In this document: piece after piece, positions 104 to 39,755 of the stretch
Layout of the letters: each line of letters opens with the position of its first letter
Numbering within the stretch: position 1 is the first letter of the stretch
Origin: Escherichia phage vB_EcoA_ASO2B
DNA: 39,917 nt
Strand: one strand, 5' to 3'
Sequence record: MZ726794.1
Translations under genes and position numbers: made by a program
The notes under the pieces: generated by a model
What the model was told of the DNA's origin: nothing
Database searches by the model: none
Seen by the model: only the letters and a program-made list of their open reading frames with translations

Positions 104-217
104 GTCCTACACCTACAGTCTCACTAACCTACAGTCTCACTAACCTACAGTCTCACTAACCTACAGTCTCAACCATAAGACACCAACACCTACAGTCATA
201 GACCTACAGTTACTAGA
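104..217. repeat. Left short-repeat array (SRL-like), ~7 tandem units with core CCTACAG
   Basis: Seen directly: acctacagtctcacta repeated at 111-126, 127-142, 143-158, degenerate copies to ~217. Analogous to T7 CCTAAAG arrays adjacent to the terminal repeat (concatemer processing/packaging region). Confidence 0.7.
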
Positions 218-20121: not shown

Positions 20122-21006
20122 ATGTCTCAATCAGTTTATGCCGAGTTCGGCGTTAGCTCTAATGCAATCACTGGTTCCGTTGAGGACCTGAACGAACACC
20201 AGAAGTCTATGCTTGAACAGGACGTAGCTGTTCGTGATGGCGATGACGCTATTACCTTCAAGCAACTGGAAGCCGAAAACGAAGAGGCGACCGAAGAAGA
20301 CGAAAACGTCGAAGAGACTGAAGGTGAAGAAGACCACGAGTCAGATGACGAAGAGTCTGAGACAGATGGTGAGCAACCTGAGTTCGTAGAACTTGGTGAT
20401 GCACCTAAAGAGCTGACCGAAAGTGTCACCGCTCTGGATGAAAACGAAGCTGCATTTGACGACATGGTGTCTTCTGCTGTAGAAGCCGGCAAGGTCACTG
20501 CTGATGAAATTACCGCTATCAAGGCTGAATACGCCAAGGACGGTAAGCTGTCTGACGCATCCTACGCTAAGTTGCAGGAAGCAGGTTACACCAAGCGTTT
20601 CGTAGATTCGTTTGTCCGTGGTCAGGAAGCTCTGGCTGAACAGTATGCTGCTGGTGTGGTTCGCTACGCTGGCGGAGCTGAACAGTTTAATCGCATCCTG
20701 TCACACCTTGAGTCCAACGACCCATCAACTCGTGAAGCACTGGAAGCTGCTATCGTTCGTAAGGACATTGCGACTACCAAAGCTCTGCTGAATCTGGCTG
20801 GCAAGACTCTGGGTAAAGCTGTGGGTGTTAAACCTCAGCGTACCATCACCACTCAGGCTAAACCTGTGGTCGCACCTAAGGCTCCTCAGACCGAAGCATT
20901 CAGCTCCAAGGCTGACATGATTAAGGCCATGAGTGACCCGCGATACCTGCGTGACGCTAAATACACTATGGAAGTTCGCGCTAAGGTAGCTGCCTCAAGC
21001 CTGTAG
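20122..21006 (+). CDS. Capsid scaffolding protein (T7 gene 9 homolog)
   Basis: Start at 20122 (SD aaggag); acidic middle region; C-terminal IKAMSDPRY as in T7 gp9. Confidence 0.9.
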   Translation: MSQSVYAEFGVSSNAITGSVEDLNEHQKSMLEQDVAVRDGDDAITFKQLEAENEEATEEDENVEETEGEEDHESDDEESETDGEQPEFVELGDAPKELTESVTALDENEAAFDDMVSSAVEAGKVTADEITAIKAEYAKDGKLSDASYAKLQEAGYTKRFVDSFVRGQEALAEQYAAGVVRYAGGAEQFNRILSHLESNDPSTREALEAAIVRKDIATTKALLNLAGKTLGKAVGVKPQRTITTQAKPVVAPKAPQTEAFSSKADMIKAMSDPRYLRDAKYTMEVRAKVAASSL

Positions 21007-21007
21007 G

Positions 21008-21031
21008 ACTAAACTATCACTATAGGGAGAC
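21008..21031 (+). promoter_or_regulatory. Phage RNAP promoter (phi10-like), full consensus ctaaactatcactatagggaga
   Basis: Only copy with the full GGGAGA start; located upstream of the capsid gene as T7 phi10. Confidence 0.85.
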
Positions 21032-21132: not shown

Positions 21133-22176
21133 ATGGCAAACGTTCCGGGTCAGAAAATTGGTACAGACCAAGGTAAAGGCAAATCCAGTTCAGACGCTCT
21201 GGCGTTGTTCCTGAAGGTATTTGCTGGTGAAGTCCTGACCGCATTCACTCGCCGCTCTGTAACTGCTGACAAGCATATTGTCCGTACCATTCAGAACGGT
21301 AAGTCTGCTCAGTTCCCGGTCATGGGTCGCACCTCTGGTGTGTATCTGGCTCCGGGTGAGCGACTGTCCGATAAGCGTAAAGGTATCAAACATACCGAGA
21401 AAGTGATTACCATTGATGGTCTGCTGACTGCCGATGTGATGATTTTCGACATTGAAGACGCGATGAACCACTACGACGTGGCTGGCGAGTATTCCAACCA
21501 GTTGGGCGAAGCTCTGGCTATCGCTGCTGATGGTGCGGTGCTGGCTGAAATGGCGATCCTGTGTAACCTCCCGGCTGCATCCAACGAGAACATCGCGGGT
21601 CTTGGCACTGCGTCAGTACTGGAAGTTGGCAAGAAAGCTGACCTCAACACCCCGGCTAAACTGGGTGAAGCAATCATTGGTCAACTGACCATTGCTCGTG
21701 CGAAGCTGACCTCCAACTACGTTCCTGCTGGCGACCGTTACTTCTACACCACGCCGGACAACTACTCTGCAATCCTAGCGGCTCTGATGCCGAACGCTGC
21801 TAACTATGCTGCGCTGATTGACCCAGAGACTGGTAACATCCGTAACGTGATGGGCTTCGTTGTTGTTGAAGTTCCGCATCTGGTACAGGGTGGCGCTGGT
21901 GAGACTCGTGGTGACGATGGCATCTCTATCGCTTCCGGTCAGAAACACGCATTCCCGGCAACTGCTACTGGCGACGTTAAAGTTGCTATGGACAACGTTG
22001 TTGGTCTGTTCTCTCACCGTTCTGCTGTGGGTACTGTGAAGCTGCGTGACTTGGCGCTGGAACGTGACCGTGACGTAGATGCTCAGGGCGACCTGATTGT
22101 TGGTAAATACGCTATGGGTCACGGTGGTCTGCGTCCTGAAGCGGCTGGCGCACTGGTTTTCAGCCCAGCGGCGTAA
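21133..22176 (+). CDS. Major capsid protein (gene 10A)
   Basis: SD aggaga; LALFLKVFAGEVLTAF, KHTEKVITIDGLLTADV, ILAALMPNAANYAALIDPE, AMGHGGLRPEAAG match T7 gp10A. Confidence 0.97.
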   Translation: MANVPGQKIGTDQGKGKSSSDALALFLKVFAGEVLTAFTRRSVTADKHIVRTIQNGKSAQFPVMGRTSGVYLAPGERLSDKRKGIKHTEKVITIDGLLTADVMIFDIEDAMNHYDVAGEYSNQLGEALAIAADGAVLAEMAILCNLPAASNENIAGLGTASVLEVGKKADLNTPAKLGEAIIGQLTIARAKLTSNYVPAGDRYFYTTPDNYSAILAALMPNAANYAALIDPETGNIRNVMGFVVVEVPHLVQGGAGETRGDDGISIASGQKHAFPATATGDVKVAMDNVVGLFSHRSAVGTVKLRDLALERDRDVDAQGDLIVGKYAMGHGGLRPEAAGALVFSPAA

Positions 22177-22307
22177 GCACCTTTAGCCAACCTAACGTCG
22201 CTACAGTAGCGGCTGCACCTGAAGAGGAGACTCTAACTCCTCAACAGAAAGCTGCGCGTACTCGTGCTGCGAACAGGGCCGCTAAACTGGCTGAGTCCAA
22301 CAACTAA
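22155..22307 (+). other. Programmed -1 frameshift site (G GTT TTC, 22155-22161) and 48-codon extension giving minor capsid protein 10B
   Basis: Slippery heptamer at the same place as T7; the -1 frame reads QPSGVSTFSQPNVATVAAAPEEETLTPQQKAARTRAANRAAKLAESNN to TAA 22305-22307, resembling the T7 10B extension. Confidence 0.7.
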
Positions 22308-22310
22308 TTG

Positions 22311-22350
22311 AAACCCCTTGGGTGCCTTCGGGTGCTTGAGGGGTTTTTTG
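22311..22350 (+). terminator. Late terminator (Tphi-like)
   Basis: aaaccccttgggtgccttcgggtgcttgaggggttttttg: GC-rich hairpin with G-U pairs plus a T6 tract, near-identical architecture to T7 Tphi. Confidence 0.85.
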
Positions 22351-22364
22351 CTTAAGGAGGTACT

Positions 22365-22454
22365 ATGGTCCTTATTTACACAGGGTTAGCACTATTCGTC
22401 TTATTCTGGGCGTACCTGCTGTCCAGCTCACCGTCTAGCGCCTATGACCGTTAA
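22365..22454 (+). CDS. Possible small hydrophobic peptide (29 aa)
   Basis: ATG 22365 with SD aaggagg; MVLIYTGLALFVLFWAYLLSSSPSSAYDR; its stop codon lies inside the SD of gene 11. Confidence 0.3.
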   Translation: MVLIYTGLALFVLFWAYLLSSSPSSAYDR

Positions 22455-22465
22455 GGAGTAAACCT

Positions 22466-23032
22466 ATGGCTCAATACATTCCACTGAATGCTAACGATGA
22501 CTTAGACGCCATCAACGATATGTTAGCTGCTATCGGTGAACCAGCAGTCCTACAGCTTGACGAGGGGAACGCTGACGTCTCGAACGCTCAACGTATCCTG
22601 CATCGTGTCAATCGTCAGGTCCAAGCTAAAGGCTGGAACTTTAATATCAATGAAGCTGCTGTCCTGACACCTGATGTCCAAGACAATAGGATTCGATTCT
22701 TGCCGTCATACCTTCGCGTAATGACCGCTGGGGCCACCAGCTACTACAGCAACATGGGTGGATACCTGTACGACCTATCCACTCAGTCAACCACTTTCAC
22801 CGACCCCATCACGGTAGAGCTTGTGGAGATGAAGCCATTCTCCGAGATGCCTGTGGTCTTCAGGGACTACATCGTCACTAAAGCTAGCCGTGAGTTCAAC
22901 GCTAAGTTCTTCGGTAGCCCAGAGTCAGAGCTATACCTTCGTGAGCAGGAAGCAGAACTCTATCAGCAGGTTATGGAGTACGAGATGGACACTGGTCGCT
23001 ACAACATGATGTCTGACATCGGGAGGGACTAA
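22466..23032 (+). CDS. Tail tubular protein A (T7 gene 11 homolog)
   Basis: RILHRVNRQVQAKGWNFNINE, YIVTKASREFNAKFFG, EYEMD match T7 gp11. Confidence 0.9.
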   Translation: MAQYIPLNANDDLDAINDMLAAIGEPAVLQLDEGNADVSNAQRILHRVNRQVQAKGWNFNINEAAVLTPDVQDNRIRFLPSYLRVMTAGATSYYSNMGGYLYDLSTQSTTFTDPITVELVEMKPFSEMPVVFRDYIVTKASREFNAKFFGSPESELYLREQEAELYQQVMEYEMDTGRYNMMSDIGRD

Positions 23033-23259
23033 TGGCTAGTCACAACCTGAAGATTCACCGCCAGCACTTTGGTCCGGTACAACTAGGTCTAAAGACAGCA
23101 GAGCTGAGACTTAACGACCGGGACTTTAAGGTTGGCGATTGGCTTATCCTGAATGAGTGGGACAACGGGTATACTGGACAACAGGTAGCACGTAAGGTTG
23201 TCCACATTGCTGACGTTGGTGACATCGCTGAGGGATACGTCCTAATGAGTATGATTTAA
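23032..23259 (+). CDS. Small PUA/ASCH-like protein (DUF3850-like), 75 aa, inserted between gp11 and gp12
   Basis: Pattern KIHRQHFGPVQLGLKTAELRLNDRDFKVGDWLILNEWD...YTGQQVARKVVHI resembles DUF3850 small phage proteins (from memory); start overlaps gp11 stop (TAATG). Confidence 0.55.
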   Translation: MASHNLKIHRQHFGPVQLGLKTAELRLNDRDFKVGDWLILNEWDNGYTGQQVARKVVHIADVGDIAEGYVLMSMI

Positions 23260-25626: not shown

Positions 25627-25651
25627 CTTATTGAAGGGCCTATAGATTTAC

Positions 25652-36323: not shown

Positions 36324-36521
36324 ATGATTGAGTTAGACTTCAAGAATGAGGTCCTTAAAGCCTCTCCTATAGTCGGGACCGCTGCGGCTGATGGTGCCAG
36401 TCGGTTCTTCTTCGGACTTACACTGAACGAATGGTTCTACGTTGCAGCTATCGCGTACACCGTTGTCCAGATTGGTGTGCTAGTCTACAAAACGATTAAA
36501 GGAGGCGGTGGTAAAACATGA
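36324..36521 (+). CDS. Holin (gene 17.5-like)
   Basis: 65 aa with one transmembrane segment (YVAAIAYTVVQIGVLVY); located before the terminase/spanin genes as in T7. Confidence 0.7.
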   Translation: MIELDFKNEVLKASPIVGTAAADGASRFFFGLTLNEWFYVAAIAYTVVQIGVLVYKTIKGGGGKT

Positions 36522-36882: not shown

Positions 36883-37332
36883 ATGCTCGAATTTTTAAAG
36901 AGAGCGGCTCCGTGGTTACTTGCAGCAGTGATGTTTGCGGGTGGCTACCACACCGCTAATAATAAGTGGGAGGCTAAGGTCAATGAAGAATACACCTCGA
37001 ATCTTAAGGCATCGGAAGATACAAGGCTTGCTGTCCAAGCTGAAGTCAACAAAGTGTCCAAACGGTTTCAGGACGAAATGTCCTCGCTGGAAGGCAGCAC
37101 TGATAGGATTATTGCTGACCTTCAGTCTGACAATAAGCGGCTGCGCATCCGAGTCAAGCCAACGAGTGGAACCACGCAAAGTGACGGTCGATGCGTCATT
37201 GATGGTTACGCCGAACTTGACGAACGAGATGCTAAACGTCTTATCGCCATCGGAGTGAAAGGAGACAAGTGGATTAAGGCCCTTCAGGACACTGTGAGAG
37301 CCTTGCAGCAAGATAAGGAGGTGACGCATTGA
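36883..37332 (+). CDS. i-spanin (Rz-like, T7 gene 18.5 homolog)
   Basis: N-terminal membrane anchor [15 protein letters not shown], then a charged, probably coiled-coil periplasmic domain; SD gggaggg. Confidence 0.8.
36983..37258 (+). CDS. o-spanin (Rz1-like, gene 18.7), embedded in +1 frame of the i-spanin gene; start uncertain
   Basis: Lipoprotein signal with lipobox [13 protein letters not shown] and Pro-rich mature part; chosen ATG 36983 gives 91 aa; track ORF begins at 36935. Confidence 0.5.
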   Translation: MKNTPRILRHRKIQGLLSKLKSTKCPNGFRTKCPRWKAALIGLLLTFSLTISGCASESSQRVEPRKVTVDASLMVTPNLTNEMLNVLSPSE

Positions 37333-39679: not shown

Positions 39680-39755
39680 ATCCTACTTATTGGTCTATCC
39701 TAGTGTCGCCTGACCTACGGTCCTTGACCTACAGTGGCTGTGGCCTACAGTAGTG
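39680..39755. repeat. Right short-repeat array (SRR-like), CCTAC(A/G)G units
   Basis: cctacgg 39714-39720, cctacag 39728-39734 and 39744-39750, plus degenerate copies upstream; mirrors the left array at 104-217. Confidence 0.6.

What the first reader, a model, noticed from the sequence alone, without database searches (positions are those of the whole stretch)
22365..22454. Small hydrophobic ORF immediately downstream of the late terminator, coupled to gene 11
Right after Tphi there is a strong SD (aaggagg) and a 29-codon ORF encoding a single predicted transmembrane helix; its stop codon lies within the gene 11 SD. It could be a leader peptide affecting gene 11 translation after terminator read-through, or a small membrane protein.
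Basis: seen in the sequence. Interest (0 to 1): 0.4.

Follow-up and report, generated by a model that had tools for sequence, protein, structure and literature searches.

The report
Conserved 29-residue phage membrane micro-protein gene
The tiny ORF between the capsid-gene terminator and tail gene 11 of this K1F-like coliphage is a real but dispensable gene for a 29-residue membrane-anchored peptide; relatives in three groups of T7-like phages carry it at the same spot, and its job is still unknown.

Summary
The window is Escherichia phage Mt1B1_P3 (Kayfunavirus). Right after the Tphi hairpin and T-run there is AAGGAGG (22354-22360), ATG 22365, a 29-codon ORF, and a TAA (22452-22454) that starts the gene 11 SD (TAAGGAG; ATG 22466).

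It is more than a chance ORF.
- **Carriers:** about 63 GenBank Kayfunavirus records carry the segment, as two forms that differ at 40 of 87 nucleotides. Both forms keep 29 codons, 15 identical residues and the stop-in-SD layout (neutral simulation P about 1e-4).
- **Integrity:** all type-1 haplotypes read are intact except one with a C-terminal frameshift (pN/pS 0.35).
- **Wider family:** weak tblastn hits lie at the same site in Klebsiella Przondovirus and Molineuxvirinae phages. They share a hydrophobic helix followed by [ST]-[GS]-P-x-S-x-[YFA]-[DE]-[RK] (dN/dS 0.13-0.31).
- **Dispensable:** K1F, EcoDS1 and most relatives lack the ORF cleanly. There its SD and ATG drive gene 11 directly, so it is accessory and not needed for gene 11 expression.
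- **Expression:** no phage promoter lies between phi10 and phi13, so it can only be expressed by Tphi read-through.

No Pfam, PHROG, NCBIfam, PADLOC, PDB or Rfam match and no paper was found. Databases list it only as a hypothetical protein. It is a new, small, uncharacterised micro-protein family, and of moderate interest.

The parts
22310..22349 (+). Late terminator Tphi: a 17-bp hairpin with a TTCG loop, then a T-run. Transcripts that stop here do not contain the small ORF.
   Evidence: Annotated as a terminator in EcoDS1.
22354..22360 (+). Shine-Dalgarno sequence AAGGAGG of the small ORF, 4 nt before its ATG. In relatives without the ORF, the same SD drives gene 11.
22365..22454 (+). Small ORF of 29 codons plus TAA: MVLIYTGLALFVLFWAYLLSSSPSSAYDR. 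It has an N-terminal membrane helix (about residues 2-20) and a polar tail with the family motif S-S-P-S-S-A-Y-D-R.
22452..22458 (+). Gene 11 Shine-Dalgarno sequence TAAGGAG. Its first three bases are the stop codon of the small ORF.
22466..23032 (+). Gene 11 (tail tubular protein A / tail adaptor), starting 11 nt after the small ORF's stop codon.
22368..22468 (+). The roughly 101-nt cassette (ORF codon 2 through the gene 11 ATG) that is present or absent among Kayfunavirus genomes. The exact borders are ambiguous because of the repeated TTAAGGAG...CTATGG.
21004..21028 (+). Phage promoter phi10, the nearest upstream phage promoter. The next one is at 25647, so the small ORF, gene 11 and gene 12 depend on read-through of Tphi.
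   Evidence: The T7 precedent is in PMC5592923.

Best explanation
22365-22454 is a genuine, translated, non-essential late gene. It encodes a 29-residue single-pass membrane micro-protein.

**Shown**
- The ORF has its own strong SD, of the same stereotyped form as other late genes in this genome.
- It lies only on transcripts that read through Tphi.
- Its protein sequence is under purifying selection.
- It belongs to a small family found at the same site (between the capsid-gene terminator and tail tubular gene A) in Kayfunavirus, Przondovirus and Klebsiella Molineuxvirinae phages. The family has a variable hydrophobic helix and a conserved juxtamembrane tail [ST]-[GS]-P-x-S-x-[YFA]-[DE]-[RK].
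- It is gained or lost as a roughly 100-nt cassette bounded by duplicated SD-ATG sequences. When it is absent, gene 11 takes over its SD and ATG.

**Inferred**
- The peptide is released from the ribosome and then inserts into the host inner membrane. At 29 residues it is still inside the exit tunnel when translation ends.
- It probably sits with the short N-terminus outside and the tail in the cytoplasm. The only basic residues are C-terminal.
- It acts late in infection through its conserved tail on a membrane-associated partner or on membrane integrity. Possible roles are lysis timing, exclusion of other phages, or countering a host factor. The target is unknown.
- Because its ribosomes terminate on the gene 11 SD, it is also translationally linked to gene 11. 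That link is a by-product of compact packing, not its main role.
For: **Anatomy:**

**RBS is a gene-start signal:** 19 occurrences on the + strand against 1 on the - strand.

**Distribution in Kayfunavirus**
- 48 GenBank records carry type 1 and 15 carry type 2.
- Every type-1 haplotype read has start, frame and stop intact, except one C-terminal frameshift.

**Selection on the protein**
- Type 1 against type 2: 40 of 87 nt differ, dS is saturated, 15 of 29 residues are identical, and the length is the same.
- Synonymous swaps include CGT/AGA for Arg29 and CTG/TTA for Leu19. Neutral simulation gives P about 1e-4.
- Across 15 type-1 haplotypes: 9 synonymous and 10 non-synonymous polymorphisms, pN/pS 0.35, no nonsense changes.
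- dN/dS is 0.28-0.31 in Przondovirus, 0.13-0.16 in Molineuxvirinae and 0.25 for type 2 against type 2b.

**Synteny of weak tblastn hits**
- The Przondovirus and Molineuxvirinae matches both lie between the capsid-gene terminator and the tail tubular A gene.
- Family alignment: M1, P23 and S25 are invariant, and the hydrophobic segment is retained.

**Dispensability and the cassette**
- ORF-less alleles equal the ORF's SD plus ATG fused to gene 11.
- The allele state is uncoupled from gene 11 phylogeny. Gene 11 copies 97-99% identical in nucleotides are linked to ORF-less, type-2 and nuclease-insert alleles.

**Expression route**
- There is no phage promoter between 21004 and 25647.
- In T7, genes 11 and 12 are expressed only by Tphi read-through (PMC5592923).

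**Database status:** the exact protein is already deposited as a 'hypothetical protein' / UniRef uncharacterised protein.
Against: - There is no direct evidence of translation or membrane location: no Ribo-seq, proteomics or fusion data were found.
- The function is not constrained by any homology. Pfam, PHROGs, NCBIfam, PADLOC and PDB are all empty.
- Most close relatives do without it. A survey of 56 more distant Studiervirinae loci found no hydrophobic ORF at this site. Any benefit is therefore conditional.
- Within type 1 several changes are radical (G7W, R29C/H, W15C). One pairwise dN/dS between type-1 forms is above 1, on only 6 changes.
- All dN/dS values rest on very few sites.
- Homology of the Molineuxvirinae form rests on weak tblastn scores (E about 0.5-3) plus synteny and a shared motif.
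Confidence: 0.75

Rival explanations
1. The ORF is a regulatory leader (upstream ORF). Its purpose would be to deliver or couple ribosomes to gene 11 on Tphi read-through transcripts, and the peptide itself would be a by-product.
For: - The stop codon or last codons overlap the gene 11 SD in all four lineages: 8-12 nt between stop and ATG, or a 17-nt overlap in Molineuxvirinae.
- In T7, gene 11 depends on read-through, and translational coupling to upstream genes has been proposed (PMC5592923).
- A weak predicted pairing exists between codons 2-3 (UCCUUA) and the gene 11 SD (UAAGGA).
Against: - The peptide sequence, length and hydrophobic pattern are under purifying selection. Coupling alone does not require that.
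- ORF-less relatives with 97-99% identical gene 11 express it directly from the same SD.
- The insert has no significant structure (z = +1.27).
- The pairing seen in the window's fold is not evident in the type-2 fold.
Confidence: 0.1
2. The ORF encodes a sequence-specific arrest or sensor peptide of the TnaC/SecM/MifM kind. The conserved C-terminal residues would stall the ribosome on the gene 11 SD to tune gene 11 translation.
For: - The most conserved residues (P23, S25, Y27, D28, R/K29) are the last seven. These would lie in the upper exit tunnel when the ribosome is at the stop codon that overlaps the gene 11 SD.
Against: - In Molineuxvirinae the same motif is followed by seven more codons, and the stop lies 17 nt inside gene 11. 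The motif is therefore not tied to termination.
- A viable isolate has the YDR tail replaced by a frameshift (L007).
- The last residue is not proline.
- At 29 residues the hydrophobic helix cannot leave the roughly 30-40-residue exit tunnel before termination. MifM/SecM-type force sensing is therefore physically excluded (established knowledge).
Confidence: 0.05
3. The ORF is a non-functional passenger. It would be a remnant of an insertion or duplication of the gene 11 ribosome-binding region that happens to be open, or a footprint of the mobile elements that use this spacer.
For: - Presence is patchy.
- The cassette is flanked by duplicated SD-ATG repeats.
- The same spacer holds an endonuclease VII gene in another phage.
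Against: - The reading frame is kept open across 46% nucleotide divergence and in two further genera. The excess of changes at third codon positions gives pN/pS and dN/dS well below 1.
- A strong SD is kept upstream although the surrounding bases vary.
Confidence: 0.07

Closest known systems
Bacterial and phage small single-pass membrane proteins of about 30 residues. Examples: regulators such as KdpF, AcrZ, MgtS and CydX/AppX; type I toxin peptides such as TisB and ZorO.
   Same: Size of 29-37 residues. One hydrophobic helix with a short polar or charged tail. Usually missed by annotation pipelines. Expected to act by binding a larger membrane protein or by disturbing the membrane.
   Different: No sequence relationship was detected to any of them. 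It is encoded by lytic T7-like phages at a fixed late-region site. It has no antisense RNA or toxin-antitoxin context, and its partner is unknown.
Phage 'moron'-type accessory genes and homing-endonuclease insertions in intergenic spacers
   Same: A short self-contained cassette carrying its own ribosome-binding site, present or absent between two conserved essential genes. The allele state is uncoupled from the flanking phylogeny. The same spacer holds an endonuclease VII gene in another isolate.
   Different: Classical morons carry their own promoter and terminator and occur in temperate phages. This cassette has neither, and relies on Tphi read-through.
T7-family holin gp17.5 and single-gene lysis peptides of ssRNA phages (for example the 37-residue LysM)
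   Same: Small, late-expressed phage peptides with one membrane helix and a polar C-terminus.
   Different: The genome already has a canonical T7 holin and an Rz-like spanin elsewhere (36324-36521 and 36883-37332). The ORF is not next to any lysis gene, is half the size of a holin, and matches no holin family.
Translationally coupled upstream ORFs and leader peptides
   Same: The stop codon lies inside the SD of the next gene, 11 nt before its ATG.
   Different: The peptide sequence is conserved, and the downstream gene is expressed without the ORF in most relatives.

Membership tests
Protein-coding gene (as opposed to a chance ORF) | The start codon is preceded by a ribosome-binding site of the type used by other genes of the genome. 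| tested here: met
   AGGAGG + 4 nt + ATG, the same form as several other ORF starts in the list, for example 17538, 23269 and 26757. The motif occurs 19 times on the + strand and once on the - strand. The SD is retained in all haplotypes although neighbouring bases vary.
Protein-coding gene (as opposed to a chance ORF) | The frame is kept open and the amino-acid sequence is conserved beyond the nucleotide sequence in relatives. | tested here: met
   pN/pS 0.35; dN/dS 0.13-0.31; type 1 against type 2 has saturated dS with 15 of 29 identical residues (P about 1e-4).
Protein-coding gene (as opposed to a chance ORF) | Direct evidence of translation (ribosome footprints or detected peptide). | not testable with these tools
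   No such data were found in the literature searches.
Single-pass membrane protein | A hydrophobic stretch of about 19 or more residues that favours membrane insertion. | tested here: met
   Best 19-residue windows have mean Kyte-Doolittle 2.0-2.6 and summed apparent insertion free energy of -0.8 to -3.0 kcal/mol in all 14 family members (scale values recalled from memory). Pipis annotators report a TMHMM helix, although for another frame.
Single-pass membrane protein | Experimentally shown membrane location and topology. | not testable with these tools
   Needs fractionation or PhoA/GFP fusions.
Regulatory leader peptide / translational coupling device | Expression of the downstream gene depends on translation of the upstream ORF, for example because the SD is masked by structure that the ribosome opens. 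| tested here: not met
   The insert has no significant structure (z = +1.27). The pairing seen in the window is not evident in the type-2 fold. ORF-less relatives drive gene 11 from the same SD. Only the stop-in-SD geometry is met.
Arrest peptides (TnaC / SecM / MifM type) | A conserved arrest motif sits at the stall site, and for force sensors the peptide is long enough for the sensing domain to leave the ribosome. | tested here: not met
   The motif is displaced seven codons from the stop in Molineuxvirinae. The peptide has only 29 residues. A natural frameshift of the tail exists.
Holins (T7 family, PF10746, and others) | Sequence match to a holin family, and location in or next to the lysis cassette. 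| tested here: not met
   No Pfam or PHROG match. The canonical holin is at 36324-36521 and the spanin at 36883-37332, about 14 kb away.
CydX/AppX small subunits of cytochrome bd oxidase (PF08173) | A match to the family profile, including the conserved N-terminal residues. | tested here: not met
   A resemblance at the N-terminus of type 2 and the Molineuxvirinae form (M-x-Y-L-L) was recalled from memory only. Pfam at E up to 10 gave no such hit. A profile search of all PDB chains, which I recall (not checked) include bd oxidase small subunits, gave nothing.
Bacterial lipoprotein signal peptide | A lipobox [LVI][ASTVI][GAS]C after a positively charged N-region. | tested here: not met
   There is no basic N-region. 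L-T-G-P-C is not a lipobox. The Cys is replaced by Ser in type 1 and by Val in Molineuxvirinae.
Known anti-defence or defence proteins | A match to PADLOC models. | tested here: not met
   no family at E up to 10.

The most novel reading that the evidence does not exclude
The peptides would form a previously unnamed, anciently syntenic micro-protein family of Autographiviridae. Its conserved cytoplasmic tail (P-x-S-x-Y-D-R/K) would bind and inhibit or re-programme a specific inner-membrane host protein late in infection, for example a membrane-bound abortive-infection or exclusion factor, or a respiratory or cell-envelope complex. That would give carrier phages a host-range or timing advantage on particular encapsulated Enterobacteriaceae strains. 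It would be a 29-residue phage-encoded membrane-protein effector, among the smallest known.
Probability: 0.25. Interest if true: 0.65.

Novelty: new member of a known kind. Interest (0 to 1): 0.4.

Why it matters
- Gene callers and protein databases largely miss proteins of 30 residues or fewer. The window's own GenBank record does not annotate this one, and another record annotates the wrong frame.
- Comparative evidence alone was enough here to show that a 29-codon ORF in a well-studied phage group is a selected gene. It has relatives in three genera at one fixed site.
- That adds a concrete, easily testable candidate to the small set of phage micro-proteins that act at the host membrane.
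- Several carrier phages appear to be therapy candidates (LM33_P1 and K1-capsule phages; from my own knowledge). An accessory membrane peptide that varies between near-identical isolates could contribute to differences in host range, lysis timing or exclusion.
- The locus also shows how a gene can be inserted or lost cleanly by duplicating a ribosome-binding site.

Tried and rejected
- **Protein-family libraries.** PHROGs, Pfam, NCBIfam and PADLOC scans of five family members gave no meaningful hit. The only matches were sub-threshold transmembrane noise: PetC anchor at E 0.31 and DUF350 at E 0.038.
- **Solved structures.** A PDB profile search gave nothing at E up to 10.
- **Word-indexed protein search.** It refuses queries under 40 aa. 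Chimeric two-peptide queries returned only two deposited phage proteins.
- **Exhaustive profile search of 1.84 billion representatives.** It found only two family members and one spurious repeat protein. The family is not visible outside these phages, although ORFs this short are under-called.
- **Degenerate DNA patterns.** A pattern for the ORF found 4 IMG/VR contigs and 4 metagenome contigs, all Kayfunavirus-like. The TGPCSPYD-stop pattern found no new viral contig. In 185,579 prokaryotic genomes it found one chance match with no helix and no stop, so no host counterpart was found.
- **Survey of other phages.** Among 56 more distant Studiervirinae gene-11 loci there is no hydrophobic small ORF at this site.
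- **RNA-level explanations.** The insert has no significant fold. There is no Rfam match. There is no sigma-70-like or phage promoter in the spacer.
- **Alternative frame.** The frame annotated in phage Pipis (TTG start inside the terminator) was rejected, because the T-run length varies from 5 to 9 among relatives and shifts that frame.
- **CydX/AppX mimicry.** Rejected for lack of any profile support.
- **Failed check.** My attempt to compare the 300 nt upstream of Tphi across alleles was mis-registered and gave meaningless values. Only the gene 11 identities from that call are used.
- **Literature.** Searches found no description of this ORF.

Full report
**Identity of the window and check of the observation**

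The 551 nt around the finding are 100% identical to Escherichia phage Mt1B1_P3 (MT496969 / OZ035815). This is a K1F-like member of Kayfunavirus (Autographiviridae, Studiervirinae).

- Gene 10A ends at 22176.
- The in-frame end of the 10B extension is TAA at 22305-22307.
- Tphi is a 17-bp hairpin (22310-22326 / 22331-22347, loop TTCG) running into a T-run at 22344-22349.
- AAGGAGG lies at 22354-22360.
- ATG is at 22365, followed by 29 codons: MVLIYTGLALFVLFWAYLLSSSPSSAYDR.
- TAA is at 22452-22454.

That TAA is the start of TAAGGAG, the SD of gene 11, whose ATG is at 22466. Residues 1-19 are hydrophobic enough for one membrane helix.

**Is it more than chance?**

Three lines of evidence say yes.

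1. *The ribosome-binding site is a gene-start signal.* GGAGG + 3-9 nt + ATG occurs 19 times on the coding strand and once on the other strand. On the coding strand it mostly marks starts of long ORFs. The small ORF has the same AGGAGG-NNNN-ATG form as several of these other ORF starts.

2. *Every copy read is open.* blastn finds the segment in 48 GenBank phage records. A second, diverged form is in 15 more. I read about 25 distinct haplotypes from GenBank, IMG/VR and metagenomes. Start, frame and stop are intact in all but one. The exception is vB_EcoP-22664UKE3-2, where a 1-nt deletion five codons from the end gives a 31-residue product with a changed tail. A GGAGG-type SD 4 nt (in most type-1 haplotypes) or up to 6 nt (type 2) before the ATG is kept even where the bases around it differ (AAGGAGG, GGAGGAGG, TAGGAGG, GATGAGGAGG).

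3. *The changes follow the pattern of a coding sequence.*
   - Type 1 (the window) and type 2 (vB_EcoP_F, KM02, ZG49 and others: MFYLLTALGLFVSFWAIILLTGPCSPYDR) differ at 40 of 87 nt.
   - Both have 29 codons and 15 identical residues. Eight of those residues are encoded by different codons, including CGT/AGA for Arg29 and CTG/TTA for Leu19.
   - dS is saturated. In 200,000 neutral simulations with the same number of changes, an open frame with at least this identity arose at about 1e-4.
   - Across 15 type-1 haplotypes there are 9 synonymous and 10 non-synonymous polymorphisms on 21 and 66 sites. That gives pN/pS of 0.35, with no nonsense change.

**A wider family at the same site**

A tblastn search with the type-2b peptide (from IMG/VR locus L019) gave weak hits in Klebsiella phages. 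Fetching the context showed that the hits lie at the same place, after the capsid-gene terminator and directly before the tail tubular A gene.
- *Przondovirus* vB_KpnP_cmc355D: MFIVLSAVSLAVATMLYVVVTGPCSPYDK, 29 residues, with stop TAA inside the gene 11 SD TAAGGAGG.
- *Molineuxvirinae* vB_KpP_FBKp16: MYYLLCISLLLFAGFWCYVLATGPVSEFERRDNANSK, 37 residues, running 17 nt into gene 11.

Reciprocal searches find 6 Przondovirus-like records and 17 Molineuxvirinae-type records: 16 from Klebsiella phages and one labelled Proteus. They also re-find the Kayfunavirus forms.

Within these lineages most changes are synonymous or conservative (dN/dS 0.28-0.31 and 0.13-0.16). The family alignment shows a variable hydrophobic helix followed by a conserved tail, [ST]-[GS]-P-x-S-x-[YFA]-[DE]-[RK]. 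M1, P23 and S25 are invariant.

Homology of the Molineuxvirinae form rests on weak scores plus synteny and the shared motif, so it is probable rather than proven.

**The ORF is dispensable and behaves as a cassette**

K1F, EcoDS1, ST31 and most other Kayfunavirus lack the segment. About 63 of the roughly 220 records that match the flanks have it.

The spacer between Tphi and gene 11 has at least six alleles:
- two short forms, AAGGAGGGCCTATG and the K1F-type GAGAGGAGACTTATG;
- ORF types 1, 2 and 2b;
- a 491-nt insert encoding an endonuclease VII / His-Me finger protein.

The short alleles equal the ORF's own SD and ATG joined to codon 2 of gene 11. Type 2b uses exactly the K1F-type SD, and type 1 uses the AAGGAGG form. 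In Przondovirus a 15-nt repeat (AGGAGGCTTTATGTT) brackets the ORF.

The ORF can therefore be lost, or gained, as a roughly 100-nt unit between duplicated ribosome-binding sites, leaving gene 11 correctly expressed.

The allele state does not follow gene 11 phylogeny. Gene 11 copies 97-99% identical in nucleotides to the window's are linked to ORF-less, type-2 and nuclease alleles. The only other type-1 locus in that set has 90.8% identity. Type 1 also occurs in front of a divergent gene 11 (L041). Recombination at this spacer is evidently frequent.

A survey of 56 more distant Studiervirinae loci found no hydrophobic small ORF there.

**Expression**

The phage promoter consensus (CTAAACTATCACTATAGGGA) occurs at 21004 (phi10) and next at 25647. 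None lies in between, and no sigma-70-like site lies in the spacer. The small ORF, gene 11, the DUF3850 ORF and gene 12 can therefore be transcribed only by read-through of Tphi. This is as established for genes 11 and 12 of T7 (PMC5592923).

**How it most likely works**

*Shown:*
- It is a selected protein-coding sequence with its own strong SD on late read-through transcripts.
- It encodes a hydrophobic helix plus a conserved short tail.
- It is accessory.

*Inferred:*
- A 29-residue chain is still inside the ribosomal tunnel at termination, so it must insert into the membrane after release.
- The only basic residues are C-terminal (more of them in the 37-residue form). The positive-inside rule therefore favours N-out/C-in, with the conserved tail in the cytoplasm.
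- The tail is the likely interaction surface for a membrane-associated partner, or the peptide perturbs the membrane.
- Late expression suggests a role in lysis timing, exclusion of competitors, or countering a membrane-bound host factor.

I cannot choose among these roles. The genome has a canonical T7 holin and an Rz-like spanin 14 kb away, so the peptide is not the primary lysis effector.

**The leader-peptide idea**

The geometry is real and conserved. In all lineages the ribosome finishing the ORF sits on the gene 11 SD, and coupling in this region has been proposed for T7. Several results argue against it as the main function:
- Gene 11 needs no such help in ORF-less relatives.
- The insert has no significant RNA fold (z = +1.27).
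- The weak pairing between codons 2-3 and the gene 11 SD is not evident in the type-2 fold.
- There is no Rfam match.
- A sequence-independent leader would not show protein-level selection.

An arrest-peptide mechanism is unlikely for three reasons. The motif is seven codons from the stop in Molineuxvirinae. The tail is frameshifted in one viable isolate. The peptide is too short for a membrane-insertion sensor.

**Comparison with what is known, and novelty**

No Pfam, PHROGs, NCBIfam, PADLOC or PDB relationship exists. An exhaustive profile search of 1.84 billion proteins returns only family members. A motif scan of 185,579 prokaryotic genomes gives only a chance match.

The exact protein is deposited as 'hypothetical protein' for some isolates (UniRef A0A9E7M778). 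It is unannotated in the window's own record and annotated in a wrong frame in phage Pipis. No paper describing it was found.

It works like the known small single-pass membrane proteins of bacteria and phages, and it is organised like a minimal accessory cassette. It is a member of none of the named families tested. I rate it a new member of a known kind.

**Verdict**

The membrane-protein reading is supported, and the leader reading only in its geometry. Interest is moderate (0.4). It is a tidy, testable micro-protein family with unknown function, and nothing in it overturns expectations for T7-like phages.

Noticed in passing
L015 1013-1498 (IMGVR_UViG_3300045988_000061), the same Tphi-gene 11 spacer: In place of the small ORF, this Kayfunavirus carries a 491-nt insert. 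It encodes a 143-residue endonuclease VII / His-Me finger protein (PF02945, E 1.6e-19), probably a homing-type nuclease. The spacer is an insertion hot spot.
   Followed up: partly
L009 about 1270-1500 (IMGVR_UViG_2974604219_000001; the 40,291-bp length matches Escherichia phage ZG49, KX669227): A deletion appears to have removed the end of the 10B-type extension and the whole Tphi hairpin. Only the T-run is left, directly upstream of a type-2 small ORF. If this is real, the phage has no late terminator before gene 11.
   Followed up: no
window 23032-23259 (+): A 75-residue ORF between gene 11 and gene 12 matches DUF3850 (E 1.9e-19) and ASCH. It is an accessory gene that T7 lacks (from my own knowledge of the T7 gene list) and has its own GGAGG RBS.
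   Followed up: partly
L001 487-591 (Escherichia phage Pipis, PV714130): The record annotates a 34-residue protein in another frame, starting at a TTG inside the terminator stem. That frame exists only because Pipis has two extra T in the T-run (relatives have 5-9 T). The conserved ATG frame is intact there but not annotated.
   Followed up: yes
window 22365-22454 in MT496969 (H92): The window's own GenBank record has no feature over the small ORF. Other near-identical records (PV615262 and the MZ234xxx series) call it a hypothetical protein. Annotation of this gene is inconsistent across the genus.
   Followed up: yes
PV615262 (L002): A record named 'Acinetobacter phage vB_Aba_01KA', with host given as A. 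baumannii, is 99.6% identical to this E. coli Kayfunavirus over the 551-nt query. The host assignment looks doubtful.
   Followed up: no
window 111-171: There are three exact tandem copies of a 16-nt unit (CCTACAGTCTCACTAA) near the left end. Related CCTACAGT motifs occur near 39713-39753, presumably in the terminal-repeat / concatemer-junction region.
   Followed up: no
L057 1483-1612 (Klebsiella phage vB_KpnP_cmc355D): A 15-nt direct repeat (AGGAGGCTTTATGTT) precedes both the small ORF and gene 11. This is a ready substrate for precise loss of the ORF by recombination. A related ORF-less phage (L099) has a closely similar single RBS plus ATG (AGGAGGACTTTATGTT) at that position.
   Followed up: partly
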